From positions 5,406-69,405 of the IMG/VR virus record IMGVR_UViG_3300032326_000865: 64,000 bases of DNA, one strand, 5' to 3'. A program made the position numbers and the translations under genes. The notes under the pieces were generated by a model that was given only the letters and a program-made list of their open reading frames with translations, was not told the DNA's origin and made no database searches. This document shows, piece after piece, positions 1,632 to 43,100 of the stretch. Every line of letters starts with the position of its first letter. Positions within the stretch are counted from its first letter, which is position 1. Source of the stretch: a virus.

Positions 1632-2691
1632 AGATAGTCTGAACTAGCTCAAATTGACCAGATTCAAACGCCTTGTCAGTGAGGTGCATTGCGCCGTCGT
1701 AATAGTAGGCAACGACATTAGAATCACTAGAATCAACGCGATGGATCTGACAGTCCACTCTGTAGCCAGATTGCTCAAGAAAGTCGCAAGCGTCTTGAAC
1801 CATGAGCTTTTCATCATCAGTCATTTCCTTAATGGCAAATCCAGAAGAGGGATTACGAAGACGAAGAATGTTGGCGATTTTAGGATTCAGTGAAGTTGGG
1901 CGCTTCTTCCAAACTTCATTGACGGTTTCCTCCATTTCTTTGGACCAAGTATTGTCGTAATCAAACTCAGACTCAATACCTTTGGAGGTGATGAGCTTTT
2001 CAATTAGGCTCTTGTCCTTGAGGTGTTTACAAATAGCCACACCTACAGTGTAACGGAACGCGTAGATGTTTGCCATCGTACGGTCTTCCGTCAGGTCAAG
2101 ATGAGAAAGAATCTCGTAAGACCAATTGGCTTGCTGAAGCTCAGAAACTTTAACACCGCGAAACCAAACGTCACCCTTGCCAGTGTAGAAATTGACAGTA
2201 TTGGTCTTAGCAATTGGCTCACGATCACCAATAAAGATACGATCATTATTCTTGTGAGAATCAATGATTTCTGGACCAGTGACGACAATAGAAGTTCCAG
2301 CACTCAAAGGGCCACTTGCCAGAAGGCATACCCCAGACTCGTCCATGGTATTGGACATGAGCTCGCGATATGCTTGATCAACAGTCCACTTGAATCCGTA
2401 GTGAGTCGTGAATGCAAGGTGCTTGCCATTGCAAAGAACACGCTGGAACTCTTGACCACGGAATTCCATTTTCTCGAGACTGAACTCATAAACTTTACCA
2501 GATTCGCAATGGATTGTAACTTCGTGTCCAGTTCGGAGAAGCACTGCGATTGCATACTTAAATCCAGTTCCAAACATTCCAATGCTCTCTTCATTGGTCT
2601 TTACTGACAGACCCATAAGCTCCCAAGCACCGGGATTGATTTCTCCGTTAGTATGGAACACTACGGATTTGTTTTCTTGAATTGTGTTCAT
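1519..2691 (-). CDS. GHKL (HATPase/Hsp90-like) ATPase with a degenerate C-terminal zincin-like motif
   Basis: SIGMFGTGFKYAIAVLLR lid motif, RELMSNTMDE motif, C-terminal IFEESAHH...F. Confidence 0.75.
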   Translation of the reverse strand: MNTIQENKSVVFHTNGEINPGAWELMGLSVKTNEESIGMFGTGFKYAIAVLLRTGHEVTIHCESGKVYEFSLEKMEFRGQEFQRVLCNGKHLAFTTHYGFKWTVDQAYRELMSNTMDESGVCLLASGPLSAGTSIVVTGPEIIDSHKNNDRIFIGDREPIAKTNTVNFYTGKGDVWFRGVKVSELQQANWSYEILSHLDLTEDRTMANIYAFRYTVGVAICKHLKDKSLIEKLITSKGIESEFDYDNTWSKEMEETVNEVWKKRPTSLNPKIANILRLRNPSSGFAIKEMTDDEKLMVQDACDFLEQSGYRVDCQIHRVDSSDSNVVAYYYDGAMHLTDKAFESGQFELVQTIFEESAHHKGFVDYSLSFQQYLIKQVIVQSRKRIKKAI

Positions 2692-2705
2692 TACATTAAA
2701 TGCTC

Positions 2706-2720
2706 AAGCCCGAAGGGCTT
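2706..2720 (-). promoter_or_regulatory. Conserved hairpin motif, copy 2 (aagccc-gaa-gggctt)
   Basis: Compensatory stem change relative to other copies; 15 nt upstream of the ATPase ATG. Confidence 0.55.
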
Positions 2721-2868
2721 TGTTGTTTTATTGATTTAAAAGAACGTGCGACGCAGCCGACCGCTAGCGCTGCGGATGGTCGGGGGTGTTATTCATTGCG
2801 GGGTATTGGGGAGTTATTGCGGACTTGTGGTTTAGAAGGTCTTTCAAGCGGAAGGGAGTGAAGATCCC

Positions 2869-3369
2869 ATGAATCGAATCGAAGCAGCAGAGGAATGGAT
2901 ATCCACCCAATCTGAGGCAGCACGAACGACGCTCGCCAAAGCCATAGCAGGAGCGTGGACTCTGGCGCTTCCACTGTTGCTATCGTTGTCAGGGTTATCC
3001 ACAGCAAACAAAATCCTAGGTAGTGTCCTCTGGGTTTCAGCGACGCTGAATTTATTTCTTCTCGTGCGGGTGTGCTGGCATCGAACACAGAACAGGCGAC
3101 GTGAAGTCGATCAAGCCAAGTTACCTGAACCACCTTCACTTGATGGTTTTGACTTGAGCGTTTTGATCCGATTGGTTGCATACGACGTAGGGTCAGGAGT
3201 TCACAGACTCGCGAACGACATGGGCGTAGAGTCCTTTAAGGTTTCGCACAGCACCGACAAACTGCTGGCCTGCGGCTATGTGGATTACCTCAGAGAATCG
3301 TCGTCCGGTTCGGTTTACCGCGCCAATGCCGCAGGACGTTCGCGGTGTCTCAACCCACCGAAGAAATGA
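2869..3369 (+). CDS. Cassette-borne membrane protein with a C-terminal winged-HTH-like domain
   Basis: GGGAG RBS; two hydrophobic segments; VHRLANDMGV...DKLLACGYV; stop 5 nt before the first attC. Confidence 0.7.
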   Translation: MNRIEAAEEWISTQSEAARTTLAKAIAGAWTLALPLLLSLSGLSTANKILGSVLWVSATLNLFLLVRVCWHRTQNRRREVDQAKLPEPPSLDGFDLSVLIRLVAYDVGSGVHRLANDMGVESFKVSHSTDKLLACGYVDYLRESSSGSVYRANAAGRSRCLNPPKK

Positions 3370-3374
3370 AGAGC

Positions 3375-3504
3375 AACGAACAAGGCGTGCCATACAACCG
3401 CTACCAGCCCTACTGTCGGCGGAGTCTTGGCGTGGCTTCATGGCTTCACCCCCGTTTCGAAGCTGGCTCTCGCTGGTAGCGGTGTATGCACTTTGACGTT
3501 CAGC
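3375..3504 (+). repeat. attC-like site 1
   Basis: AACGAAC...GTTCAGC; left arm tgcCatacaAccgctaccagc pairs with gctggtagcggtgtatgca, leaving two unpaired bases (C, A). Confidence 0.85.
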
Positions 3505-3803
3505 TCATAAAATCCATCGGGGCGCTTTTTGAATAGGTGGGCTCGATTAGGGTCAACGTGCGCCCGCAATCCGCCTTCCAACGGTTTCGGCAGCCGCTCG
3601 AACGTGGTCAGTTGCTTTTCCTGATTTTCCCAGAAACGGATTGAGTATGCCGCGCCGATGATGTTCCCGAGGATCTGATCGACCGGACCGAACACGCCTC
3701 CCTTGTGCTCGTATGGTGTGATTTCGCGGAGATTTGACCACGCGATGTCGATGCGTTGGCCGGGTTTGAGGCTTCCTACAAGTTGGATGAGTCGTTGTTT
3801 CAT
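3438..3803 (-). CDS. Hypothetical protein, antisense cassette gene (MKQRLIQL...)
   Basis: ATG at 3803; C-terminus reads through the right arm of attC1 and stops in its loop. Confidence 0.7.
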   Translation of the reverse strand: MKQRLIQLVGSLKPGQRIDIAWSNLREITPYEHKGGVFGPVDQILGNIIGAAYSIRFWENQEKQLTTFERLPKPLEGGLRAHVDPNRAHLFKKRPDGFYELNVKVHTPLPARASFETGVKP

Positions 3804-3818
3804 GGTGATTCGAGCAAA

Positions 3819-3905
3819 GCTGAACAAGTCGCGGATGGCGACGGCGATCAGCCGTCAATTTGATTTCAATCTCCAGCGCGCCGCGCCATCGCTGGATCGT
3901 TCAGC
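3819..3905 (+). repeat. attC-like site 2
   Basis: GCTGAAC...GTTCAGC; arms gcGgatggcgAcggcg / cgccgcgccatcgc. Confidence 0.85.
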
Positions 3906-4179
3906 TCACTGATTCGGGCGTGTATTCGACGACCGCTTCCATCTTGGCCAAGTAGTGGATTCGAATGTTCCGCGATGGTCTGCCGCGCCCATCGGTTGCC
4001 CAGTAGATCACCTTGACGGAGCCGGACCAATCAGGCTTCGGCTCGAACTGCTTTTCGTCGTCGTAATCGACCTCAACGGTCATCTCGAAGCGCTTGATTC
4101 CTTGCGCTTCCGCGAGGGCGGCGGCGGCTTTGGCGAAACCCTCAAGCGAGGGCGGGATTGTTGGTTTGGTGGCGTTCAT
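3901..4179 (-). CDS. Hypothetical protein, antisense cassette gene
   Basis: 92-aa ORF whose TGA overlaps the R' box of attC2. Confidence 0.7.
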   Translation of the reverse strand: MNATKPTIPPSLEGFAKAAAALAEAQGIKRFEMTVEVDYDDEKQFEPKPDWSGSVKVIYWATDGRGRPSRNIRIHYLAKMEAVVEYTPESVS

Positions 4180-4195
4180 AGGTAGTTCGGGGAAA

Positions 4196-4282
4196 GCTGA
4201 ACAAGAAGATGGTGGAGACGGCGATCAGCCGTCAGATGGAAGCGGAGCTTGTTCCGGCCGCTCCACATCAGGGACGTTCGTG
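4196..4282 (+). repeat. attC-like site 3
   Basis: GCTGAAC...GTTCGTG; arms gatGgtggagAcggc / gccgctccacatc. Confidence 0.85.
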
Positions 4283-4509
4283 CTACGGAATTCCAGAGCC
4301 TCGCGGTTGAGTTCAGGCCGGAGCTTGTATCGACCACAGCAGTTGCACCTCCATTCGGATCGCATCCCGTTGTGGTAGTTGATCTGATCGCCGTAGATGT
4401 TGCGGACGAAGCGGTCCACATGCCCGCCAGTTTTCCAGCAGTAGTGCCGCGCCCGAAGAGCACGAACAAGTCGCGGCAGAGAAACCGCCCATAATCTTTT
4501 CAATTTCAT
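4225..4509 (-). CDS. Small Cys/His protein (RNIYGDQIN...RSEWRCNCCG), antisense cassette gene
   Basis: ATG in the loop of attC4, stop in the loop of attC3; CxxC motif. Confidence 0.65.
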   Translation of the reverse strand: MKLKRLWAVSLPRLVRALRARHYCWKTGGHVDRFVRNIYGDQINYHNGMRSEWRCNCCGRYKLRPELNREALEFRSTNVPDVERPEQAPLPSDG

Positions 4510-4557
4510 TTCATTGGCCTTTCTTGCGCGGCGGTGCCTGCGCTGTTGTCGTTCATC
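4461..4557 (+). repeat. attC-like site 4
   Basis: CACGAAC...GTTCATC; imperfect arms gcggcag..accgcc / ggcggtgcctgcgc. Confidence 0.8.
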
Positions 4558-4753
4558 CAATAATTTGGCATTCGGGCGGGTAGTAATCGAACATGCAGAC
4601 CACATTGTGGTGATCCAGTTTCAGCTTCAGGAAGCAGTCATCCGTTCCGACGACCATTCCCACATGCGGCGTTTTCCCGTCGCGTTCGACCATCACCTCG
4701 CAGCCGAGCGTGAAGGACGTTCCGAACATTTCGTTGATTTCTTCGAGCGTCAT
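4553..4753 (-). CDS. Small SH3/KOW-like hypothetical protein, antisense cassette gene (MTLEEINEMF...)
   Basis: ATG at 4753 just inside the cassette; TGA overlaps the R' box of attC4. Confidence 0.65.
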   Translation of the reverse strand: MTLEEINEMFGTSFTLGCEVMVERDGKTPHVGMVVGTDDCFLKLKLDHHNVVCMFDYYPPECQIIG

Positions 4754-4758
4754 AAGAG

Positions 4759-4845
4759 GATGAACAAGTTGGTGGATGGAACGGCGAGGAAGTCTATTGG
4801 TGAGGCGGCGCTGGTTCGCGCCGTCCATCACCATCGGCGTTCGGC
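4759..4845 (+). repeat. attC-like site 5
   Basis: GATGAAC...GTTCGGC; arms tggtGgatggAacggcg / cgccgtccatcacca. Confidence 0.85.
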
Positions 4846-5084
4846 TTAACTGAAATCTTCCCGTTTTCGTTCCAAACCATCAGCGGCCATTTGTGATCGT
4901 TTCGATTCTTGGACTCGCAAGCCAGGCACACCACCGACAGCAGCTTGTCCCAGGCGTCGCCCATCGTCTCGCCGCTCACCTCCACATGAACAACGAACGC
5001 CGAACAAGGCGCGGCAGCGGCAACCCCCGACCCGTCATCGGTCGGAGTTGCCGGGGTGGATTCTTGGATAGGTTCAGGGGTCAT
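4794..5084 (-). CDS. Hypothetical protein, antisense cassette gene (MTPEPIQEST...)
   Basis: Starts in the loop of attC6 (ATGA overlap) and ends in the loop of attC5. Confidence 0.6.
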   Translation of the reverse strand: MTPEPIQESTPATPTDDGSGVAAAAPCSAFVVHVEVSGETMGDAWDKLLSVVCLACESKNRNDHKWPLMVWNENGKISVKPNADGDGRREPAPPHQ

Positions 5085-5126
5085 GTTCGTTCTCGGTCGG
5101 GGTTGCCTGCGCTTGGGATGTTCTCG
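4999..5126 (+). repeat. attC-like site 6
   Basis: GCCGAAC...GTTCTCG; arms gcggcagcggcaacccccgacc / ggtcggggttgcctgcgc. Confidence 0.8.
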
Positions 5127-5494
5127 GGATCGAATGTTCCGTCCCGGTGGTCGTAGCGAGCGGCCAGATCGGGGATGACTGGCGTGCCTTTCGCGTCGAG
5201 CTTCAAAGTGGCGGCGCGAAACAGCCGTTCGATTTCCGCCACGATCAAGGCACCAGCTTTGACCAGGTTCCGAACAGGATCTTCGCTGGGTCTCCATGCC
5301 TCGTCTTCAAACGGCCAATGGTCTTCGCAGTCGCCCAGATTGTGGCCGTTGTTCCAGAGCACGGCTTCGTGCGTGTAGCACATTGCGGCCACGGCGATTT
5401 CGCCGTGGATGTGCTCGTCATCGTGCGCGGCGGCGTAGCCCAGCGAGCGTTGGTTTGCTCTCTCAAGTTCGATCAGTTCAAGTTCGGTTTTCAT
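5081..5494 (-). CDS. Conserved phage protein (ERxxQ...HDDxH...WP...RNLVKAGALIVAEIERL family)
   Basis: Recognisable widespread phage family; C-terminus reads into attC6. Confidence 0.8.
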   Translation of the reverse strand: MKTELELIELERANQRSLGYAAAHDDEHIHGEIAVAAMCYTHEAVLWNNGHNLGDCEDHWPFEDEAWRPSEDPVRNLVKAGALIVAEIERLFRAATLKLDAKGTPVIPDLAARYDHRDGTFDPENIPSAGNPDRERT

Positions 5495-5628
5495 TTCGTT
5501 GTGATTTCGACGTTTCGGATGATCCATGCGACGATCTCACCAAGCTTCCACATGGCCAGAGGCAGGGAGATTAGGAGCGCGATTCCGAGGACCTTGAAGC
5601 CTCTCCAGATTCCTGAGAATTGATTCAT
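5491..5628 (-). CDS. 45-aa membrane peptide (MNQFSGIWRGFKVLGIALLISLPLAMWKLGEIVAWII...)
   Basis: Hand-translated; ATGA overlap with the next gene. Confidence 0.6.
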   Translation of the reverse strand: MNQFSGIWRGFKVLGIALLISLPLAMWKLGEIVAWIIRNVEITTK

Positions 5629-5795
5629 GCCGGGCTCTCGTCCTCCAGTGTCCGGCGGAACGAGCCGGGTTGTTTCGGGTGCATGTCGTAGTGGGCTCCC
5701 GACCCCGAGAGAAATCCCGGCTTTAGTTCGACGTGCGAGGCGGCTTCCCGCCCGTCCCGCGTTTTGTATTTTTTTGTGATGTCAATCATGGTTTT

Positions 5796-6098
5796 TTAAA
5801 TGACTTCTCTAAACAAACGGTAGTTTGCTTTAGCTTTGTGATTCTCTGGTTCTTGAGTGAAATCAACATGATGATTTCTTATACAAATCCAGCATTCAAG
5901 CGGTTCTTTGTCTTCAATTAGATCAAATGAACTGTATTCTGATGATGATTCAAAAAACTGACCATTTACATTATGGTTTAAAGCTTCACCTGTTGTAAGT
6001 CCGATTGATACAACAGGTTGACTTCCCGGAGCATCAATACATAAAATTCGAGCTAGCTCTCCGTTTCGATAACGGTATTTTTTATTCAGCCGGATTTT
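5796..6098 (-). CDS. Hypothetical phage protein (KKYRxRNGxxARILCxD family)
   Basis: Motif match; start at internal ATG (MKIRLNKK). Confidence 0.75.
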   Translation of the reverse strand, partial: KIRLNKKYRYRNGELARILCIDAPGSQPVVSIGLTTGEALNHNVNGQFFESSSEYSSFDLIEDKEPLECWICIRNHHVDFTQEPENHKAKANYRLFREVI

Positions 6099-8603: not shown

Positions 8604-10348
8604 CAGCGAAGCCCACGAAGCGCAGACTCCAGCGCCATGGCAAAGGTGTCCGCAACTTCTTGGTGAAGTGTTCCGGTCTCGAGTTCTTCGCGAATGATGG
8701 AGCGAAGCTTTGCTTTGAGTGTAGGCGAAGCGTTGCTTGCGCTAAGCCGTGCTGGTTGGATCTTGTCAATCCGCTTGGTCACTAGACCTTGCTTGCTTTC
8801 GACAAGTGCAAGTGTGCCTCGCTTGACGCGATTCATCACCCAAGAGCGATGAGGTGGCATTTCGTCCACTTCAATAACCTCGGCCTTAACCTCGATGGTA
8901 TTAGCCGGGACTAAGAACATGCTTTCCTGAGTTCTTGGTGTCTCGAACACTGGTGCGTTATTTGCTGTCCCTTTGATGGACCCGAATCCACGCTTGTGGA
9001 CTGGCATCCAGTATTGGATCAGGCTGGAGAATCCGGGGTTCATCCACTCCTCCCTGAGTGCCGCCATAGCTGTGACTACGTTCATGCGCTCCAAGTGCTT
9101 TGATGCGGAGTCCATGTCACCTGCACGCATTGCATTTTGGTGCAACTTCTGTGCGTATGCATATTCAGCCTTGAGGGCTTTGTATGTGGCTTGTGAGTGA
9201 ATGTCACCCATGGTAGCCTGCTCGTTGCTTCCTACGCTAATTGTGCGAAGAACTGGCTTTCCGTTACGGAATCCCGCCAGCATTACGTTAGGGGCGTGCT
9301 GACGCTGCGAGAACATCACCAGCTTTTCCTCGATGGAGCCTTCGTCGAATTGATCGGCATCAATCCATTCAGAGGTGTCTTCTTCACGGTCAAATGCCAT
9401 GGCGACCAGTTCCTCCTCCTCGTTCATGTAGTCCACCGTTTCACCTTGTTCGTCCTGAACTTCGGTCTCTGCTGCTCCTTTGAGCAAGTGGTAGTCCAAC
9501 TCTGAGAGAGTGAGACGTTCGTTCTCTTCTCCTTTGAGTGAGAGCTGGTGTCCTTCCGTGTAGTAGGAAGAATTGGTGAGCTTGGGATCTTTCTGCCAGC
9601 CTACAATGACAACCCATTGGTTGCGCTGCCAGATAGTCATGTAGGACGGGATGATGTCTGTCAGTCCAGTGAGAGCCTGAAGGATGCTGTGCGCACCTCC
9701 ACGAATTTGCAGACCTGCACGCTTAGCTATACGTTGCATGGCAATGTCCGGTCCATCACTAAGGATTGGGCGATGCATGTCTTGGGTCATGCCCAAGTCG
9801 AAGTATCGTCCGTCAAGGAGTCGCAGGCAGTAGCGAGCCGGGATATGCTTCATGCTCTTTCCTTCATTCTGCAAGGGAGGAAGCTCATAGACCTGAGCGT
9901 TGTCCCATTTTTTACCGTTAGGACCAGAAACCTTAACCGTCTCCGACTTGTTGAAGTGCTGATTGGCACGGCGAATCTTGTTCTGTTCACCTTTCCAGTT
10001 CTCAAGCTCACGCATCCGCTGTGCGTTCCATACGCAAGCTGCAAGCCTCTCCTCAAGGGAGAGTGGATAACCACGCTCCTTAGCCAGTGCAATGAGGTCT
10101 TTGCGGGAGGATTCAATCACCTTGTCTGCACCTTTCGGTAGCCATTTGCTACCAAGCATGTCCATGGTGAGGCATTTCACTGCCCGTGGAATGAGCCGAG
10201 TGATTTCCTCTTCATCAAGGAACGGCTCTACCTCTGAACCAGTGCCAAGTTTCTCCTCCAGTGCCATGAGGATGGAGTCTGGAATCGGGAAGCTTCCCGC
10301 TGCAAGTTCAGGGTTGAACCCGCTTGTTACTTTCAATGTGTGTTTCAC
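8603..10348 (-). CDS. Large hypothetical protein (581 aa) with an acidic central segment
   Basis: Long ORF; no motif recognised. Confidence 0.8.
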   Translation of the reverse strand: MKHTLKVTSGFNPELAAGSFPIPDSILMALEEKLGTGSEVEPFLDEEEITRLIPRAVKCLTMDMLGSKWLPKGADKVIESSRKDLIALAKERGYPLSLEERLAACVWNAQRMRELENWKGEQNKIRRANQHFNKSETVKVSGPNGKKWDNAQVYELPPLQNEGKSMKHIPARYCLRLLDGRYFDLGMTQDMHRPILSDGPDIAMQRIAKRAGLQIRGGAHSILQALTGLTDIIPSYMTIWQRNQWVVIVGWQKDPKLTNSSYYTEGHQLSLKGEENERLTLSELDYHLLKGAAETEVQDEQGETVDYMNEEEELVAMAFDREEDTSEWIDADQFDEGSIEEKLVMFSQRQHAPNVMLAGFRNGKPVLRTISVGSNEQATMGDIHSQATYKALKAEYAYAQKLHQNAMRAGDMDSASKHLERMNVVTAMAALREEWMNPGFSSLIQYWMPVHKRGFGSIKGTANNAPVFETPRTQESMFLVPANTIEVKAEVIEVDEMPPHRSWVMNRVKRGTLALVESKQGLVTKRIDKIQPARLSASNASPTLKAKLRSIIREELETGTLHQEVADTFAMALESALRGLR

Positions 10349-10394
10349 GTTGTGTATTCGGTTGTGTCCTTATGGACTGGTTGACATAGCCTCA

Positions 10395-10407
10395 AGCGCG
10401 AAGCGCT
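10395..10407 (-). promoter_or_regulatory. Conserved hairpin motif, copy 4 (agcgc-gaa-gcgct)
   Basis: 47 nt upstream of the 581-aa gene start in a divergent intergenic region. Confidence 0.6.
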
Positions 10408-10485
10408 CAATGCAGCTGTATTTTCAGGCTGATACGCACCTGAGGACGTTGTGGACAAATTCCACTGAAAGCTGTAGTTCTGTGT

Positions 10486-11028
10486 ATGGACATCCATAAC
10501 GAACAAGATTGTGTCTCTCCAATTAAGCCTGAACCCGTTCAATTGTCTCGAGTTGACCCTCATATGAAGGTCAGCAAGGAGCAATGGGAGGTAATCAAAG
10601 CCTTGTATTGCGCTGGAGAGAAAGCGACCGTGATTGCCCCAAAGTATGGCATCAAACCCGAGACCATCAATAAGAAGGCCTACAAGGACAAGTGGCCAAC
10701 ACCGGGTAGAATTAAGCTAGCTCAGGCCAATCCACTGGTAGAAACCAATGATCCTGCCCAAGCTCTAGCTGCTCTATGGACTGAACGTGGTGAACAGTCT
10801 CGCGAATCGGTTTACCAAGGTGCCAAGAAGGCCCTAGATCGGTTCTTTGCGATGTCACCTATACCCCAGACATTCCAAGAGGCTGCTGTAGCCCACAAGA
10901 TGCTGAAAGAGGCTGTAGATCCCACTGGTTCTAATGAGGGTCAGAGGACCAATGTGAACATCGCAGTCCTTACAAATAAAGGATTTGCTCCAATTCCATC
11001 AAATGGATCAGAACCAATTGATGTCTAA
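10486..11028 (+). CDS. terS: Putative terminase small subunit
   Basis: QWEVIKALYCAG...IAPKYGIKPETINKKAYKDKW HTH typical of TerS; helical middle; TNVNIAVL tail; start may be 10564. Confidence 0.65.
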   Translation: MDIHNEQDCVSPIKPEPVQLSRVDPHMKVSKEQWEVIKALYCAGEKATVIAPKYGIKPETINKKAYKDKWPTPGRIKLAQANPLVETNDPAQALAALWTERGEQSRESVYQGAKKALDRFFAMSPIPQTFQEAAVAHKMLKEAVDPTGSNEGQRTNVNIAVLTNKGFAPIPSNGSEPIDV

Positions 11029-11460
11029 TCTTATCCCAATGGTATCGCAATGAACTTGCGTTACTGTATTAGGATTACAGGGCATGGTATTCTATTCCCT
11101 ATAGAGCATAAAGAACACCATTAGCCATAGAGCAATCAAACAACCCGAAATCCATAATACATCCCAATATACCACCCAAAGAGACACCCACCCAAACAGG
11201 GAAGAACGTCAAATGGGAGAATACGTCAGGAATACGTCCGGGAATGCTTCCCCATGTGGCAAATAAATCATCTTTCGTTGAGTTAATCCCCCACTACGCG
11301 TGCGGAATGAGCCATTCAACGTCATACAAGTAGAGCGTTGAGTGGTTCCCGCCACGACTACGAATAAATACGAAGACCCCAAACCGTTTGTTGTCATCAT
11401 TGACGCTTGGTTTAAGGTTGGCTGTTTGTGGTGGTTTCTGGCTCAGAGGTTGTTCGACCC

Positions 11461-11510
11461 CTGATGACAGAGCCTAGTCCAAACGGATCTGAACTAGGCT
11501 CTGATAATCA
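11461..11510. terminator. Long hairpin, possible terminator
   Basis: cagagcctagt / actaggctctg inverted repeat after the minus-strand gene run. Confidence 0.5.
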
Positions 11511-11574
11511 AGGATGACGATTCTTGTTCTGGATATTGGCTAAAACCCCGTGTTTTGACCAATACCCATGGACA

Positions 11575-11709
11575 TTATTGTCCGAACCATCCCTTAACGG
11601 ACGCTGGGATAATGGAGGATTCCTTTTCTCCACCACGCATGCCAGTGTCAGCCCAAGCCATCATGCGCAGAAGCACGACAATAATAACGATGATTCCAAT
11701 TGCTTTCAT
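11575..11709 (-). CDS. Small membrane or secreted peptide (MKAIGIIVIIVVLL...)
   Basis: ATGA overlap with the upstream gene. Confidence 0.5.
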   Translation of the reverse strand: MKAIGIIVIIVVLLRMMAWADTGMRGGEKESSIIPASVKGWFGQ

Positions 11710-11975
11710 GATCTTGTGTAATTCCTTTGAACTCGGGAGGTTGGTTGTGTGGACGTAGCTCCATCCCGAAACTGGAGAGTAGTCCATTCTGAGTCGCAGG
11801 ACGCCACTACAGCACGCCTTCCGCTGGTCTTTGAGGTGACCAGCTCACCCTGAATGAAGAAGCCCCCAGCGACTTGCTGAGGGCTCTTCTCTGCGATAAG
11901 GAGCATCCGCTCCACCCAGTCTTCAGACAGAATCATCCGAAGATTAGGAGCAGGATGTAAGCAATAGCCGCCCAA
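11706..11975 (-). CDS. Hypothetical protein with a KOW/SH3-like C-terminus
   Basis: 89-aa ORF; start uncertain. Confidence 0.55.
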   Translation of the reverse strand: MGGYCLHPAPNLRMILSEDWVERMLLIAEKSPQQVAGGFFIQGELVTSKTSGRRAVVASCDSEWTTLQFRDGATSTQPTSRVQRNYTRS

Positions 11976-37110: not shown

Positions 37111-40100
37111 ATGAATTTTGAAGAAGAATTTGGCGTTGTGCCAATGGATTTTGGTTTCGATCAGTTTGATGCTCAGTCTCTTCAGCAAGAGCCTGAAGAC
37201 GAATCAGAACCTGATCTTACTAATGTCGAAACAATGTTGCTGTCTGGTGATTGGAGAGACAATCCAGAATCCAGAGCGGAAATGTCCGACACCGCCAGTT
37301 CTTTGATTCATGATGCCCTTAGAACCTCGACTGACAAAAAGGTCAGTAGGAAGGTGAGAAGGGAAGGCAAGGAAGTCGATGAAGAGGTCCCCGTCCTTGG
37401 CCCTAATGGACGATTTAGTGAAGCAGGTCGTGACTACCTAGAGCGTTCTAGGCAGATTCTGAAGGCTGCCGCAAATGACGAAAATGGTGGTCTTGTTTAC
37501 AATGAGCTTACCGGTAAAACCGAAGTAGCTTCTTGGGTTAAAGATGCCATGCGTCAGGCCCCTCAGAAGCCAGAGGAGATTTTCCCTCAGCTTGAGGAAT
37601 ATAGAAACGAGCAGAAAGCCTTGGATGAAAACAACCCGATTGATCTTGAGGGTTACGCGAAATACACCGGCAAGGATCTAAATTCCTTTAGTGAGGGCGA
37701 AAAGCAAGCCTTCACGAAACAGGTTGCCCAAATGTCCTTTAATCCCGAGGAAATGGGAGAAGAGGAAATTGGTCGGATGGTTGAGGGCATGCCCGTAATC
37801 AATCCTGCTAATCGACATGAAATCAATAAGGTTGAGTCTTGGATTTCCTCTCTTGAAGGATTTAGCGACATCGACAAAAAGATCATGATCGACGACTATC
37901 ACGACACTATTGATCGTGATATTGTTGATTACGCCAGAATGTTTTCTGCCGCTGATGCGGGTCCGATTGAGTCGATTTGGAATCGTCCTCTGATGCAAGA
38001 GCTTGAAGCTCATTTGCAGTCTGGAGGCAATGGCGTCGAGTTCCTTCGCGCCAATCAAGAACGGATGACTAAAGACGCTTATGGTGTCACCTCTGAAGTT
38101 GCCGGGACGTTCCGTGATGCTGTGATGTCTATTGGAACTGGTGCTACTTGGCTTGCTGGAGCTGCAATAGATGTTCTGCCCGGTATTGATGGCGTAGGAG
38201 AACTTGCTTCTAGGCCTGCTCAATTGTGGGGAGAGCTCGCTGAAGAAAGCGCTTCCGCTTATCGAAATCAAAAGCTATTCAGTGTTGCTGGAATCGACAT
38301 CAATAGAAGAGACATCACTGAACTGGCTGGTCAAATTGGTGCTTTTGCAGCCCTCGGTGGATTAGGTGCGCTAATGGCTAAATCCACCGGACTTGCTGCC
38401 GCTCGCGCTGCTCTTGCAAAGGGTGGCGAAGTTGCTGGGGCAATAGGGAAAGTTGCTGCTGCTGAATCGGCAATGGCCAGCTCGTCTCTAGCCGTCCAAG
38501 CAAATCTTTCAAAGTTTCTTGGCGAAAAGACCGCAAAGTTCCTAACTGCCAGCGCGACCGATACTACGGCTTACCTTGGTGGTTTGCAGGCATCTGGCAC
38601 CAGCTTCGGCAAGACTTACAACGAAATTTACAAGGCGACCGGAGACGCTGAGGAGGCTTACCGAGAGGCATCGATTCAGGGCGTTTCTGATGGTCTCTCA
38701 GCCCTCATTGCGACCAGCGTGATGAATCGAGTCGCTCCCGGTATGGAACGCGTCCTTGGGGCTCCTGAGGGCTCTCTAAGCGGAAGCCTTATCCAGAGAA
38801 TGAGAGCATCGGGTGCCTCAAAAGCTGCGATGGAGGAAACCAAGCAGATTTTCTCTCAATTGAAAATGAGCAAAGAGCTCACCAATCAATTTGGAAAGGA
38901 TCTACTTAAATACACTCGTGATTCGATGGCTAAATCCGGCCTGCGTGGGATTGGTCCAGCGGGTGACATTCTTGCTGAAGGCGTCGAAGAGTCTTTTGAT
39001 GAAATGCTTTCGGATGTCATCGAGGTTATTATCGATGATTCCAAAACGTGGTCGGAAGACGGTTGGCCTCAAATCCAACAGAATTGGCGTAGCTACGTAA
39101 AGGCTGCTGTTCTTGGTGCGATTGGTGGCGGCATTGGCTCTTCTTATGGAGCTGCCAAATCCGGTGTTAAAGCTCTTGGCTCTGACACCCAACGCAAAGA
39201 AATCATCAAGAACAACGTCGCCAAAGAATGGGATCTGCTGAAGAGCAATGTTAGCCAATTTGAGAATCGGGATTTCCTTTTGAATATTGCAGGTCAAGCA
39301 CCTGTAAAGATCGGGGAGATTCTCGCCTCCGACATGAGCATCAACGAGAAGTCCAAATACCTTGTTGATTTCGCAAGAAAAGGACAATTGGCATTTGGTA
39401 GCAGGAATCAAAAGAAAGCTGAAGTTCCCGCCGCTGGAACCGTTCCGACTGGTACGGCTCCAACTAAAGCAACCGGTCCTTCTGTCACTCCAAGTGTTGC
39501 CCCGGACAGCAATGAGGGCATTCTTTCCAGTATTGGCTACAGTTTGCCAGCGGGAAGGACTTGGAAGTCCGACCTTTCGATTACTGAATCAGCCAATCCA
39601 TCCAAAGGCAATGAAGACGGTGTAACAGTTACCCCCTTGATCGTTGGAGGTGCTTCGATGGTTGGTGCTAAGGTCACCACGGTGGATTCCAGTGGCAATC
39701 AATCCTCTCGTTACGTTTCCGCCAGCGAAGCTGCAACTCTCGTTAAAGACAAAAGAGTTGCTGCAAACTACCAGTCGGTAGGCCAAGAAAAAGCACTTTC
39801 TGGTTCTGATGTCAGAATCGAGTCTTGGAGTGATGTTGCTCCCGCTCCTAGCCAGATTTCGACAGGGGAAATCCTTAGCCAAATGGGTTATTCTCCCGGT
39901 GAAAACCAGTCTTGGAATGACGAAGTGGAGACCAATTTGGAATTCATGGAGCGGACTCCAAATGGCGATTTGAATCCAATTACCATTGGCGGAGTTCCGT
40001 ATGCTGGGGCTAAGCTTACCAAGAAGGACGCGAATGGCAATGAGACCGTTTCCTACATTAGTGCTGCTGAAGCTGCCAATCTTTCTACGGACAACAAAAA

Positions 40101-43100
40101 ATCCTACGAAAAATCTGTTGCGGAACTCGATGCGAACGTCCCAAAATGGACCAAGCAAAATGAAAAAGGAACTGACACTTCTGGAACTGATGGGCAAATG
40201 CAAGGCACCGGGACAAACCGTGCTGAAGTGGCTGGAGATGCCGAGGGAGGAAACCTTGATGAAGCTGATGGCAATCGGGGGGATGCAGAAAGAGGAAGCC
40301 CTGCTGCTGCTGAAGAAGCTGAGGAAGTAAAAGCAGAGAAGAAGACTGGCTCAATTAGGGTCGTCGCTCAAAGCGAAAGAGCGGAATCTCTTCGCGAAAA
40401 ACTCTCCAACAACGAAGAAGTAAAAGCAGCTATCGCTGCTGGAGTTGATTTTGTCATTGTTGAAAGCTTGGATCAGCTTTCCGAAATTGCAGAGGGATCT
40501 CCAATTCAGGAAAGTGCTTTTACTAGAGGCTTTGATGGAGCAGCTTACGTTACCAAAAATGGAGAAGAACTAGTTGTCCTAAATGTAAGCATTGATGAAA
40601 AAAGCGATTCTGAAGTTTTAGAAATCGTAGCACATGAAGTAATTCATCTTGCTGAATTTAGATTCAGGGGAACCAAAGATGGTCTTAAATTGTGGAAAAA
40701 TGCTATTCAGATTTTTGATCCACAATCTCCTTATTTCGATAAAGAGTTCAACTCTTTTATGGAGAAGGAGTACCCAGAATTTAATGGCCTCTCTCTTCAG
40801 CTTAAACTTTCTGAAGCAAGTAGAGCTTTCGTTCAAGGGAAGCTGAATAAGTTTAGCTTTGCTGGCGAAAACCCATTCCTTCAATACCTTGAGGATTTCC
40901 TGAATTACGTCAGAAGTGCTTACGGTGAATTTTCGGACGCTTCCAAGTATTTTCAAGAAATTGAAAAAGCTTATGCTGAGATGTCTGTTGCTTCTGAAAC
41001 AAATGAAGCAGCAAAAAAGAATGAAGAGCTCAAAAGCCAATTCGTTCCCGAAGTAACACAAAACGAACGCGATTATGTCGCAATTGAGGCTAACGAAATC
41101 CTTGATGATTCCGGGATTAAGTTTTCAGTAAAGCCTCGACCTGAAAAAGCCTCCATTCCTGCCAATGCTTCCCTCTTTGAAGGTGATGAGGACGTTTGGA
41201 TTGAAGTCTCTACTAATGAAATTGGTGTTTCTCCCGAGTTCATTGATCGTGTAATTGCTGACGAAAAGATCGATGATAAGGAGCAGCATATTGCGGATAA
41301 GGTTTCCAGCCTTGTCAGCAAATCTGGAGTGTCACTTCAAGCCTTGACGCCATCTACTGCGCCAACTGCTGAAGTGGACCCAATTTCGGAAACCCCGAAA
41401 TACATTGTTCCTGAAGACGAACTTAATGGCACCACTGACTCAGCTGGGGGAAAGTGGAGTTCATCGAGTGAGAACAAAAACATTTACACCTACACTCCGG
41501 GCAAGGGGATGGTCATTGACGCCAAGGTTGGTGATGTCGTTTCGATTGGCGGTGATACCGATAACGTCCTTGTTTTCCTGAAAGTTGATCCAGATGGCGC
41601 GATTGTTTACGTCAAAGTGAACATGACTCAGTTTGGAACCACTGACGAAAACAGCGGCGAATTCAAGAGTGAGATTCACAAGCTGAACAAGAATTGGCAG
41701 AAGAACCGGCTTCTTAGCCTGACTAAAATGGTCAGACCTCAACTTGCTTCGATTCTTGCGGGAGATACCTCTGATGCTAGCATTAATGCGCTCAGGAAAA
41801 TCCTGAAGGCGGTAATGAATGAAGTTGCTCCCGGTAAGGAGTTCATCGAGAGCACTGATCCAAATACGAACTTCATTCAATCTGTTTGGAAAAAAACAAA
41901 GAAACTTGTCACTAAGGCAAACGGTAAAACTGAAACGAAAATTGAGCAGGTTCCATTTATGGAGGTCAACTTGGCTTCCACAATCCAAGAACTGAAGTCT
42001 CTCTTGGGTAGCGCCAATCTCACGAATCCAAAGGCTGAGTTCCTTGTTTCGATGGAGGTTTCCAGACTTCTTTCTAAGTGGGTTGAGGAAGAACAGATCC
42101 ACTTGATTACGATGGATCACAGCAGCTTCTCTGAAATTAAGATTAGCAATTTCGTTAAGGAAGTCGCAAAAAACAAAGATCATCCACTTTATGCTTTGTT
42201 TGTTCAAACCGTAAAGGAACGCGCTCCTGATTCAGATCCGGTAGTTGATCGCCGTAATCCTCGCGGATTGAATCCCGAGCAAAGGTATATCGTCGGTAGT
42301 GAGCTCTTGAGAAAGGTTCAGCAGATCAGAGCTGGAGGTTCCTTTTCTGAACAAGCGAACACCGACGCAAGAAGACTTGTTTACTCGCTTGCTCAGGATG
42401 CAATGGCTGGCAAGAGCCTATTCAAATCGGCAGCTGAAATGATCCGTAGATACATGGATCGAATCCACAAGGTTCTCTGGTTCCGCTCTATTCGTGGTCA
42501 GCTTTCTGTGAAGCAACTCGAAATCCTTGATATTCTTGATGCTGAATACCGGCGTAGGAATATCCGTGGTGATGTTGATTACACCAAGGACAAGGTGACT
42601 GAGTTCATGGTGAACCGGATGAATAGCTACTATGCATCCACCGAAGATGAGATTGCCAGTGTAGCGAGAGAATTCAGTAATCCGCTAATCAAACTTCGTG
42701 GTGTCATTAATCAATTCGATGCCTTTAGGTTCTCTGACATTATTGACGTTAATGATAAATTTGAATTGTTTATCGTTCCTCAAGTCAGGCAGTTCATGGA
42801 AGACAGCAAGCTGTATGACATGGCTGAAATTGATGAAGCGATTCTCTCTCTAAATGAAAAGGAATCCTTCCGTAAGGTTTGGACTGAAACTTACATTGCC
42901 AAACAGGTAATGGAGTCGAGAGAGGCTGAACTTGAGTTTGATCCTACGGAATTCTTTAAGATGCTTGAAGGGAACAAATTCGACCCGGATGGCGTAATGT
43001 TCCAAATCTTGAAGGGTATTCCCAATACTCCAGAAGGTTCGGAGTTTTTGGCGGATCACCTTGATCGTGCTTACCAAAACGCTCGTGCCAATCGCGAACA

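What the first reader, a model, noticed from the sequence alone, without database searches (positions are those of the whole stretch)
3193..5494. Cassette genes are antisense to attC and the attC arms double as coding sequence
Seen: all five complete cassettes carry minus-strand ORFs in the phage early direction, opposite to the usual cassette gene orientation. The loops of attC1 (3438-3441) and attC6 (5081-5084) contain ATGA stop/start overlaps. The attC4 loop holds an ATG (4509), and the attC3 and attC5 loops hold stops (4225, 4794). For attC2 and attC4 the TGA is built into GTTCA itself. Arms are therefore translated as leaders (GSGCMARLVR, AVSLPRLVR, GVAAAAPCSA) and tails (LNVKVHTPLPARA, TNVPDVERPEQA, PNADGDGRREPA, ENIPSAGNPDRER). 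Inference: a phage-adapted cassette format that keeps translation coupled across the hairpins. Reshuffling would also swap C-terminal tails, because the tail comes from the neighbouring cassette.
Basis: partly seen in the sequence, partly recalled or inferred. Interest (0 to 1): 0.85.

Follow-up and report, generated by a model that had tools for sequence, protein, structure and literature searches.

The report
Mirror-image integron cassettes in a phage
A complete 69-kb phage genome carries a row of genuine integron-type swappable gene cassettes but no integrase, and its genes lie on the opposite strand to textbook cassettes, so each recombination hairpin sits in front of its gene and several genes end inside the neighbouring hairpin.

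Summary
Six attC sites (window 3375-5126) have the same geometry as the aadA1 attC of plasmid R100, with their top strand on the window + strand.

The genes between them lie on the - strand:
- c1, c2 and c3 have homologues.
- c1 shows third-position substitution bias in the - frame.
- c4 and c5 rest on ORF fit only.

Evidence for cassette exchange:
- The R boxes flanking each cassette match 7/7 in 5 of 5 cassettes.
- Two contigs from an unrelated metagenome join attC2 to c3 and attC3 to c5 at the R' box.
- Relatives of c1 and c3 keep the core but change the tail exactly after the R'-encoded Asn.

So antisense layout, coding arms and tail swapping are supported. Translational coupling is not: only one ATGA joins two plausible genes.

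I found the same mirrored layout in three other phage contigs. Phage TJE1, a published case, is canonical. Earlier notes of this scan report mirrored arrays in other phage genomes. Papers searched describe phage CALINs but not this layout.

The parts
2791..5740 (.). GC-rich hypervariable island that holds the array
   Evidence: GC 0.50-0.63 against about 0.34-0.47 in the flanks. Contigs of runs X2 and X3 share the flanks up to 2790 and from 5741 but not the interior (tables 5, 7, 8).
2869..3369 (+). c0: the one gene in canonical sense orientation, ending 5 nt before attC1 (166 aa, unknown function)
   Evidence: ORF list. Only a weak Pfam TrmB hit, E 0.097. Of the 19 listed differences within this ORF, 10 fall on the third codon position of the + frame (my count from table 3; 112 further differences were not shown).
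3193..3441 (-). 82-aa ORF that starts at the ATGA in the attC1 loop; probably a shadow of c0, not a gene
   Evidence: It lies antisense to 2869-3369. No test supports it.
3375..3504 (+). attC1 (top strand on +). It belongs to cassette c0. First bulge is C.
   Evidence: Scanner 14/14, geometry 5 nt / 6 nt; arm alignment; R boxes.
3438..3803 (-). c1, 121 aa. Starts 15 nt after the R'' box of attC2. Reads through R' of attC1 as Asn and stops in the attC1 loop, leaving a tail of about 19 aa.
   Evidence: 7 relatives at 43-86% identity. Tails diverge after ..YELN. Differences by codon position are 8/7/28 against L001 and 21/16/52 against L003.
3819..3905 (+). attC2
   Evidence: Scanner 14/14.
3901..4179 (-). 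c2, 92 aa. Its stop TGA lies inside the R' box GTTCA of attC2.
   Evidence: 9 relatives at 50-91% identity, conserved along the full length; coordinates.
4196..4282 (+). attC3
   Evidence: Scanner 13/14.
4225..4509 (-). c3, 94 aa, a small Cys-rich protein. Its ATG is in the attC4 loop and its leader runs through the L''/R'' arm. Its tail runs through R'/L' of attC3 and stops in that loop.
   Evidence: 159 relatives with E <= 0.001. Alignment A4 shows the core bounded by RLV and ..FRSTN, with variable leaders and tails.
4461..4557 (+). attC4
   Evidence: Scanner 12/14, with more than one extra base at the second bulge.
4553..4753 (-). c4, 66 aa. Starts 5 nt after the R'' box of attC5. Its stop TGA lies inside GTTCA of attC4.
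   Evidence: ORF fit only. No tblastn hit in phages. Atlas search inconclusive. The cassette body is also present in contigs of X4 and X5 (table 8).
4759..4845 (+). attC5
   Evidence: Scanner 14/14.
4794..5084 (-). c5, 96 aa if it starts at the ATGA in the attC6 loop (start uncertain; there is an internal ATG at MGDAW). Its tail stops in the attC5 loop.
   Evidence: ORF only. The only hit in the 5.8-billion-protein search is itself. The body is present in contigs of X2, X3 and X5.
4999..5126 (+). attC6
   Evidence: Scanner 12/14.
5081..5494 (-). c6, 137 aa. Reads through R' of attC6 and stops in its loop.
   Evidence: 9 PHROG families, best phrog_6628 at E 2.9e-23. No PDB sequence match.
5491..5789 (-). 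Two small - strand genes (45 and 54 aa) upstream of c6, inside the island, with no attC between them
   Evidence: ORF list. Weak PHROG hit to a membrane protein, E 0.0032.

Best explanation
This is a genuine integron-type cassette array without an integrase (a CALIN) in the minus-strand gene block of a complete phage genome that has direct terminal repeats. The array is built as a mirror image of the textbook format.

The attC top strand is the window + strand. Five of the six cassette genes lie on the - strand, which is the recombinogenic bottom strand.

SHOWN by geometry and by natural variants: crossover happens at G|TT of the right-hand R' box. The mobile unit is therefore 'gene body plus the attC that lies in front of the gene'. 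The hairpin in front can carry the gene's start codon (c3, perhaps c5). The gene's end abuts the cassette boundary in one of two ways:
- It stops at a TGA built into the R' box (c2, c4).
- It has no stop of its own, crosses the boundary as an Asn codon (AA|C) and ends in the loop of the neighbour's attC (c1, c3, c5, c6). When cassettes are reshuffled, the 12-19 aa tail then changes.

INFERRED:
- Recombination is carried out by an integron integrase supplied by the host, because the phage encodes no tyrosine recombinase.
- The array serves as a swappable store of small accessory genes transcribed with the neighbouring phage genes.
- The inversion places the recombinogenic bottom strand on the non-template strand. 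If genes are co-oriented with replication, that is also the lagging-strand template, where single-stranded folding is favoured.
- The tails are most likely tolerated by-products of tight packing rather than functional modules.
For: 1. Geometry. Read on its coding strand, the aadA1 attC of R100 is R''..AAC, 5 nt, 3 bp, bulge C, 6 bp, bulge A, stem ... stem, 6 nt, GTT... The same scanner finds it only on that strand, and finds all six phage sites on the + strand with spacers of 5 nt and 6-7 nt (attC5 also fits 4 nt / 5 nt with a 4-bp first stem).

2. Controls. In class 1 arrays, 6 of at least 7 expected attCs were found, all on the cassette coding strand. At score 13 or more there were no hits on the other strand. 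The published phage CALIN in TJE1 also comes out canonical.

3. Literature rule. Passages of Nivina 2016 (PMC5027507) state that the bulged bases lie on the same arm as AAC in the top strand, that the distal bulge is a conserved T on the bottom strand, and that the spacing is 6 bp. All three hold here.

4. The - strand genes are real. c1 has 7 relatives and third-position bias of 8/7/28 and 21/16/52. c2 has 9 relatives. c3 has 159. c6 hits PHROGs.

5. Cassette signature. The reverse complement of R'(n) equals R''(n+1) at 7/7 positions in 5 of 5 cassettes. Within one physical attC the values are 4, 7, 4, 5, 5, 4.

6. Natural variants.
- Run X5: joint 3897>4275 skips 377 nt, which is cassette c2, with 5 shared letters.
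- Run X5: joint 4272>4836 skips 563 nt, which is c3 plus c4.
- Run X2: joint 2790>4838.
- Loose ends cluster at R boxes.
- L001 shares only cassette c1, at 87% nucleotide identity.

7. Protein evidence for swapping. P0018 has the same leader and a new tail. c1 tails diverge after the Asn.

8. No PF00589 or TIGR02249 match in the phage genome.

9. The same mirrored layout occurs in G001 (2 sites at score 12 or more), G002 (7 sites) and G003 (two arrays of 4 sites each, pointing in opposite directions, each antisense to its own genes). G002 and G003 carry phage hallmark genes.

10. Passages of Richard 2024 (PMC13108822) state that a bottom strand on the lagging-strand template favours folding and excision.
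Against: - No integrase is known for this system and the host is unknown. Recombination by IntI is inferred, not shown.
- The R' boxes read GTTCNNN, which does not fit the strict GTTRRRY consensus.
- The first bulge on the bottom strand is C in 5 of 6 sites, where G is usual. Recognition by a standard IntI is therefore not certain.
- The two decisive joints come from two short, low-depth contigs (155 and 268 nt, depth 2.7 and 2.9) of a single run. One has only 25 letters on its short side, below the tool's own caution line of 30. The laying threshold was 85%.
- c4 and c5 have no homologues. My codon-usage test could not separate sense from antisense even for the known genes.
- In L001 the c1 copy is not followed by a recognisable R' box. 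In L003 a c1 relative sits after a portal-like gene with no attC in front. The genes therefore also exist outside cassettes.
- The replication direction of the phage is unknown, so the strand-exposure rationale is untested.
Confidence: 0.75

Rival explanations
1. Dead relic. A piece of a bacterial or other cassette array was picked up once by illegitimate recombination and is no longer recombined in the phage. The overlaps between ORFs and hairpins are accidents of GC-rich sequence.
For: There is no integrase in the phage. The island's GC content is foreign to the genome. Its ends are not canonical: the R' at 2788 reads GTTATTC, which does not match the R'' of attC1 (sequence; R''). GC-rich arms rarely contain stop codons, so read-through into the loops is partly expected by chance; my estimate for 6 of 6 sites closing the Asn frame is about 0.04.
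Against: Sibling contigs from the same study share the flanks but differ inside the island. Contigs from other studies carry single cassettes in other combinations. L001 shares one cassette only. The gene families are phage-associated: 61 viral loci for c3, and a c1 relative beside a portal-like gene. R-box matching is perfect in 5 of 5 cassettes, which argues for separate, recent insertions.
Confidence: 0.15
2. The hairpins are mainly phage regulatory elements (terminators, RNA-processing or translation-coupling signals) that resemble attC by convergence. Variants would then arise by homologous recombination between repeats.
For: The hairpins sit between co-transcribed genes and hold starts and stops. 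attC sites are discussed as possible terminators in passages of PMC8876359.
Against: The geometry is identical to real attCs, down to the 5/6-nt spacers, the 6-bp spacing between bulges and the distal T. Homologous exchange does not predict an R box that matches across the cassette rather than within the hairpin. The X5 joint shares only 5 letters. Four of six hairpins fold no better than shuffles on the - strand (z from -1.6 to +0.2), so they are weak as plain RNA or DNA hairpins.
Confidence: 0.06
3. The + strand ORFs are the true cassette genes, in canonical orientation, and the - strand ORFs are shadows.
For: Plus-strand ORFs of 76-111 aa exist over c2 to c5. GC by codon position is ambiguous. 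The codon test has no power.
Against: c1 has no long + ORF. c1, c2 and c3 have many relatives as - strand products. c1 shows third-position bias in the - frame. The + ORFs run straight across whole attC sites.
Confidence: 0.02
4. Assembly chimera of a phage and a bacterial integron.
For: There is a sharp GC change at both ends of the island.
Against: The record is one contig with direct terminal repeats, rated 100% complete by CheckV. Run X1 holds 97% of the sampled words of 2600-5900. The genes are co-oriented with the flanking phage genes. Independent phage contigs have the same kind of array next to phage genes: a DnaB-length 454-aa ORF in L001 (not family-tested), and terminase, portal and Erf-like genes in G002 and G003.
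Confidence: 0.02

Closest known systems
CALINs (clusters of attC sites lacking an integron integrase) in phage genomes: Qi, Rajabal, Ghaly, Tetu and Gillings 2023, PMC9892861. I read the abstract, section 3.4 and passages.
   Same: attC arrays in virulent phages without an integrase. In that paper 5 of 6 tested phage attCs were recombined by IntI1, the bottom strand better than the top. The authors propose that phages have access to the cassette pool.
   Different: Their showcase array (TJE1) is canonical by my scanner: the attC follows its gene on the same strand. The text I read calls TJE1 and PH101 'typical' and does not mention genes antisense to attC or ORFs crossing cassette boundaries.
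Canonical integron gene cassettes, for example aadA1, aac(6')-Ib-cr, arr-3, dfrA27 and aadA16 in class 1 integrons
   Same: AAC/GTT R boxes, two bulged bases 6 bp apart on the R''-L'' arm, 5/6-nt unpaired spacers, crossover at G|TT, and an R' that matches the next attC's R''.
   Different: The gene is on the bottom strand, so the attC precedes its gene. The first bulge is C rather than G on the bottom strand in 5 of 6 sites. The R' is GTTCNNN. There is no attI, no Pc promoter and no intI.
Cassettes with their own promoter in sedentary chromosomal integrons (toxin-antitoxin cassettes). Passages of Richard 2024, PMC13108822. That some of these lie inverted in the array is my recollection.
   Same: Cassette genes that do not depend on Pc. 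The figure legend refers to 'orientation in the array'.
   Different: There they are scattered exceptions within a sense-oriented array. Here 5 of 6 cassettes are reversed, and whole arrays are reversed in other phage contigs.
PeSL (promoter-early stem-loop) mobile regulatory cassettes of T4-type phages. Recalled from memory; no call.
   Same: Repeated stem-loops between small early genes in a hyperplastic phage region, proposed to mediate gene shuffling.
   Different: PeSLs are promoter-plus-terminator units exchanged by homologous recombination. They lack attC geometry and a G|TT crossover. This is a working analogy only and was not tested.

Membership tests
Integron attC site | Inverse core and core with conserved 5'-AAC-3' and 5'-GTT-3' at the two ends | tested here: met
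   6 of 6 sites.
Integron attC site | Strict R' consensus GTTRRRY and R'' consensus RYYYAAC | tested here: not met
   The R' boxes are GTTCAGC, GTTCAGC, GTTCGTG, GTTCATC, GTTCGGC and GTTCTCG: the fourth base is C, not a purine. [quoted passage not shown]
Integron attC site | Two or three extrahelical bases on the R''-L'' arm, 6 bp apart, with the distal one T on the bottom strand | tested here: met
   The distal bulge is a single A on + (T on the bottom strand) in the 4 sites with single bulges; attC4 and attC6 have 2-3 extra bases there (attC4's include A). The rule comes from passages of PMC5027507.
Integron attC site | First extrahelical base usually G on the bottom strand | tested here: not met
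   It is C on the bottom strand in attC2 to attC6 and G only in attC1. All class 1 controls have G.
Integron attC site | Unpaired central spacers of about 5-6 nt and a total length of 57-141 bp | tested here: met
   Spacers are 5 nt and 6-7 nt. The spans from GAAC to GTTC are 81-124 nt.
Integron attC site | Match to the curated attC covariance model (IntegronFinder) or to HattCI | not testable with these tools
   Neither model is on hand. My own scanner with controls stands in for them.
Integron attC site | Strand-specific recombination by an integron integrase | not testable with these tools
   This needs the attC x attI conjugation assay.
Integron gene cassette array / CALIN | At least two attC sites on one strand within 4 kb and no integron integrase nearby (definition read in passages of PMC4889954) | tested here: met
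   Six sites lie within 1.75 kb on the + strand. PF00589 and TIGR02249 are absent from the whole 69,405-bp genome.
Integron gene cassette array / CALIN | The bases after G|TT belong to the next cassette and pair with that cassette's own R'' | tested here: met
   7/7 in 5 of 5 cassettes. The class 1 control array gave 7, 7, 6.
Integron gene cassette array / CALIN | Cassettes found in other orders or contexts, with junctions at the R' box | tested here: inconclusive
   Two X5 contigs and one X2 contig show joints at R' boxes, and L001 shares a single cassette. The contigs are few, short and of low depth, and they come from a metagenome.
Canonical (textbook) cassette format | The ORF is on the attC top strand with its attC downstream | tested here: not met
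   Only c0 (2869-3369) fits. c1 to c5 are on the bottom strand.

The most novel reading that the evidence does not exclude
Phages maintain their own circulating pool of mirror-image integron cassettes and borrow host integron integrases to reshuffle them during infection. The inversion would be adaptive for three reasons. First, it puts the recombinogenic bottom strand on the non-template strand, or on the lagging-strand template, so the array is highly recombinogenic while the phage genes are transcribed and the genome replicates. Second, it lets the hairpin act as a 5' leader carrying the start signals. Third, it keeps the genes silent if a host integron captures them behind Pc. Swapping of leaders and tails at the R boxes would add a layer of protein-end diversification.
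Probability: 0.3. Interest if true: 0.85.

Novelty: new variant of a known kind. Interest (0 to 1): 0.7.

Why it matters
Integrons are viewed as bacterial devices in which a promoterless gene sits upstream of its attC and is read from Pc. Integron sites in phages were reported only in 2023, and the examples shown were described as being in the textbook format.

A recurrent reversed format in phages would mean three things:
- Phages use integron chemistry for their own accessory genes rather than merely ferrying bacterial cassettes.
- Annotation pipelines that assume sense-oriented cassettes mis-assign genes in such arrays.
- Cassette boundaries can cut through reading frames, so recombination changes protein ends.

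It also gives a natural test of how strand exposure controls attC folding.

Tried and rejected
**Searches that found nothing**
- blastn of 2700-5800 against 50,697 phage records gave no match.
- tblastn of c2, c4 and c5 against the same records gave no match.
- The 390-aa flank gene in viral contigs gave no relative.
- c1 and c2 alignments in genome contigs gave none.
- c2 in viral contigs gave none.
- Pfam found nothing above cut-off for any cassette protein.
- The c6 sequence had no match in the PDB.

**Structure and function**
- AlphaFold models of c1 (pLDDT 67) and c2 (pLDDT 71.9) gave no Foldseek PDB match at E <= 0.001. Cassette functions remain unknown.
- The Atlas search for c4 scored 0.91, with unnamed clusters only. 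I count it as a lead, not evidence.

**Tests without power**
- GC by codon position and a codon-usage log-odds test could not tell sense from antisense. In leave-one-out, 2 of 4 known genes scored higher in the shadow frame. I do not use them, although the - frames of c4 and c5 scored highest.
- Plain DNA folding shows only attC1, attC2 and attC5 clearly better than shuffles on one or both strands. Energy alone does not detect these sites.

**Other points**
- At score 12 the scanner also gives scattered hits elsewhere in the genome: 28 on + (including the six sites and one further hit at 3091-3175 inside the island) and 16 on -. I rely on score, clustering and geometry rather than on single hits.
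- The Asn frame closes inside the hairpin in 6 of 6 attCs. My rough chance estimate is about 0.04, so I do not claim design.
- No RNA holder was listed among the sequencing runs, so nothing can be said about expression. Parts of the stretch had no contig cover in X2 to X5; a hole proves nothing.
- Literature searches, and passages read, turned up no description of arrays with all genes antisense to attC.
- I rejected the idea that R-box matching fixes the orientation. It compares the same box pair under either polarity.

Full report
**Context**

The window is bases 5406-69405 of a single-contig virus record of 69,405 bp. The record has direct terminal repeats and CheckV rates it 100% complete. 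Genes on the + strand between about 10 and 52 kb include tail proteins. The - strand blocks at both ends include a DnaB-like helicase. The finding lies in a GC-rich island: GC is 0.50-0.63 between about 2700 and 5800, against about 0.34-0.47 beside it.

**The hairpins**

Six imperfect palindromes start with nGAAC-AAGnn and end with GTTCnnn. Aligning the two arms shows the same asymmetry in every site. The left arm on the + strand carries two extra bases about 6 bp apart. The first is G (C in attC1). The second is a single A in four sites; attC4 and attC6 carry extra bases at this position. The left spacer is 5 nt and the right spacer is 6-7 nt.

**Polarity test**

I wanted to know what this polarity means without relying on memory. 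I therefore read a real attC, the one after aadA1 in plasmid R100, on the coding strand of aadA1. It reads GTCTAAC, 5 nt, GTT, bulge C, AAGCCG, bulge A, stem ... stem, 6 nt, GTTAGAT.

A scanner written for this architecture gave these results:
- It finds the R100 site at 14/14 on the coding strand only.
- It finds all six phage sites on the + strand, at 14, 14, 13, 12, 14 and 12 of 14.
- The island has 7 hits on + and 2 on -. One hundred shuffles gave a mean of 0.87 and a maximum of 4.
- In three further class 1 integrons it found 6 of at least 7 expected attCs, all on the cassette coding strand. It missed the site after blaIMP-1. It gave two score-12 hits on the other strand inside a gene, and none there at score 13 or more.
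- In Tetrasphaera phage TJE1, whose attCs were validated experimentally by Qi et al. 2023, it calls the sites on the gene strand, just behind orf2 and orf3.

Passages of Nivina et al. 2016 give the same rule. The extrahelical bases lie on the arm with AAC in the top strand, the distal one is a conserved T on the bottom strand, and the two are 6 bp apart. So the window + strand is the top strand, and the - strand is the recombinogenic bottom strand.

**Which strand codes**

- c1 (3438-3803, -) has 7 relatives at 43-86% identity. Against the copies in L001 and L003, nucleotide differences by codon position of the - frame are 8/7/28 and 21/16/52.
- c2 (3901-4179, -) has 9 relatives at 50-91% identity, conserved from end to end.
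- c3 (4225-4509, -) has 159 relatives with E <= 0.001 in the representative library and 61 loci in viral contigs.
- c6 (5081-5494, -) matches nine PHROG families, the best at E 2.9e-23.
- c4 and c5 have no relatives. Their strand rests on how exactly the - ORFs fit between the sites.
- The one convincing + strand gene is 2869-3369. It ends 5 nt before attC1 in the textbook arrangement.

All are right:
- ATGA at 3438-3441 and at 5081-5084
- ATG at 4507-4509 in the attC4 loop
- stops at 4225-4227 and 4794-4796, both in loops
- TGA at 3901-3903 and 4553-4555, inside GTTCA

Four of the six - strand genes (c1, c3, c5, c6) cross the R' box in the frame xxG|AAC and run on for 12-19 codons into the loop. 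Two (c2, c4) stop at T-GA-AC.

**Are these mobile cassettes?**

1. The 7-nt R' box to the left of each gene is the exact reverse complement of the R'' box to its right in 5 of 5 cassettes. The two boxes of one physical hairpin agree in only 4, 7, 4, 5, 5 and 4 positions. This is the classical trace of separate insertions at G|TT. A class 1 array gives 7, 7, 6. The test does not tell polarity.

2. Logan contigs of other runs were laid on 2600-5900.
- In run X5, from another study, one contig joins 3873-3897 (the right arm of attC2) to 4275-4404 (c3). It skips exactly 377 nt from R' to R', with 5 shared letters.
- Another X5 contig joins 4199-4272 (attC3) to 4836-4982 (c5), skipping 563 nt.
- In X2, from the same study as the probable source, a 5.9-kb contig runs from the left flank to 2790 and then continues at 4838.
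- Loose ends pile up at R boxes (3380, 4199, 4554, 4763, 4832, 4845, 4996, 5122).
- The crossovers lie at the right-hand box. That fits the + strand being top and contradicts the opposite polarity.
- Caveats: the contigs are short, depth is under 3, one side is only 25 letters, and the likeness threshold was 85%.

3. Viral contig L001 (IMG/VR, a 32.9-kb fragment) shares cassette c1 at 87% nucleotide identity from 3503 to 3854, plus parts of related attCs, and nothing else.

4. Protein alignments show the same boundaries.
- c1 relatives are conserved up to ..DGFYELN and are unrelated after it.
- The closest c3 relative (P0018, 95%) keeps the leader MKLKRLWAVSLP and the core but has a different tail after ..FRSTN.
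- P0019 and P0020 differ on both sides of the core, which begins at RLV, encoded by CTTGTT of the R'' box.

**What this means for the unit**

With crossover at the right-hand box, a cassette is 'TTCnnn, gene body (antisense), then the attC to its right'. On the gene strand, the hairpin therefore precedes its gene and can hold its start, as in c3. The gene's last codons may belong to the neighbour. Tail swapping is thus supported by natural sequences.

Nothing indicates that the tails matter. They are unconserved, and the c1 tail is modelled with pLDDT below 50.

Translational coupling is weak as a general principle. Among the five junctions between plausible genes, only c6/c5 overlaps (ATGA), and the c5 start is unproven. 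The other ATGA leads into ORF 3193-3441, which is antisense to the + gene and likely a shadow.

**Generality**

I scanned the 61 viral loci that encode c3 relatives. This gave 10 scattered hits on the gene strand and 17 on the opposite strand. The latter are concentrated in L043 (7 sites), L063 (4 sites) and L009/L010 (1 each).

- L043 lies in contig G002, which has terminase, portal and major head genes. L063 lies in contig G003, which has a replication initiator and an Erf-like protein.
- In both contigs the sites fall in the gaps of a chain of genes on the other strand.
- G003 has two arrays pointing in opposite directions. Each is antisense to its own genes.
- R-box matching across cassettes is 7, 7, 7, 7, 7, 6 in G002, and 7, 6, 7 and 7, 7, 6 in G003.
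- None of these fragments has a tyrosine recombinase.
- In those arrays the last gene of a cassette ends within about 10 nt of the boundary, or up to 43 nt beyond it, in 7 of 12 cassettes. Read-through is therefore common but not universal.

L001 shows the same habit: an ORF through GCG|AAC, a stop in the loop, and the next ATG a few bases later reading ..PRLVS...

**Mechanism**

Shown:
- attC architecture and polarity
- genes on the bottom strand
- cassette-wise variation at R'

Inferred:
- A host integron integrase acts in trans, since the phage has none.
- The array is a swappable store of small accessory genes.

Why reversed? Passages of Richard et al. 2024 state that attC bottom strands on the lagging-strand template fold and excise far more often. 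With genes on the bottom strand, that strand is the non-template strand. For genes co-oriented with replication it is also the lagging-strand template. This is a testable rationale, not a result.

**Comparison with the literature**

Phage CALINs are published (Qi et al. 2023; I read the abstract, section 3.4 and passages). What I read presents TJE1 and PH101 as typical arrays, and my scan confirms that TJE1 is canonical. Four searches and the passages read found no description of arrays whose genes are all antisense to attC. The supplements were closed.

**Earlier notes of this scan**

Notes of this scan report the same mirrored layout in several other phage genomes. Those notes are unchecked by me. 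I arrived at L070 and L071 independently.

**Verdict**

- This is a new variant of a known kind.

Noticed in passing
L071 (G003, IMGVR_UViG_3300021160_000013) 511-2541 and 10012-11720: One 12-kb phage fragment has two attC arrays of four sites each with opposite polarity, flanking a replication initiator and an Erf-like gene. Each array is antisense to its own genes, so attC polarity flips together with gene direction.
   Followed up: partly
window 3377-3487 (attC1), laid with run X4: attC1-like sequence is covered by 11 contigs, at a summed depth of about 374, in one aquatic metagenome. This points to a large family of near-identical attCs there, either a big chromosomal integron or many phage arrays.
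   Followed up: no
window 2744-2764 and 5731-5751; 2781-2790; 5741: A 21-nt direct repeat (76% identical) sits near both ends of the island. Sibling contigs share the flanks up to 2790 and from 5741. Contigs carrying c0 start at 2781, so about 10 nt ending in GTT (2788-2790) are shared by both kinds of contig. This may be a secondary insertion site.
   Followed up: partly
window attC1 versus attC2-attC6: The first bulged base is the canonical one (C on top, G on bottom) only in attC1, the site of the single sense-oriented cassette. The five sites of the reversed cassettes have G on top. The L001 site at 5906-5981 also has G. The G002 and G003 arrays have the canonical C.
   Followed up: no
window 4225-4509 (c3) and 61 viral loci L009-L069: c3 belongs to a widespread family of 55-100-aa phage proteins with invariant H, R, Y, D, G, E, C..C (core NIYGDxI...RSEWxCxxCG). 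Its function is unknown.
   Followed up: partly
window 5081-5494 (c6): c6 matches only the C-terminal 80-100 residues of much longer PHROG families (for example positions 586-669 of 685 in phrog_6628). It looks like a free-standing copy of a domain that is usually fused.
   Followed up: no
window 3803, 4179, 4753, 5494 (gene starts): I see no Shine-Dalgarno-like motif in the 15-20 nt before the starts of c1, c2, c4 and c6. c3 has AAGAAAGG about 12 nt upstream. This is read by eye and may hint at a host with weak SD usage.
   Followed up: no
L003 (JACCDR011612362.1) 2587-2934: A c1 relative (70% identity) sits directly after a 706-aa portal-like ORF and a 117-aa ORF. Its start overlaps the previous stop and there is no attC in front. 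The gene family therefore also exists outside cassettes.
   Followed up: partly
window 37111-52368: A single 5085-aa ORF on the + strand. Not examined here.
   Followed up: no
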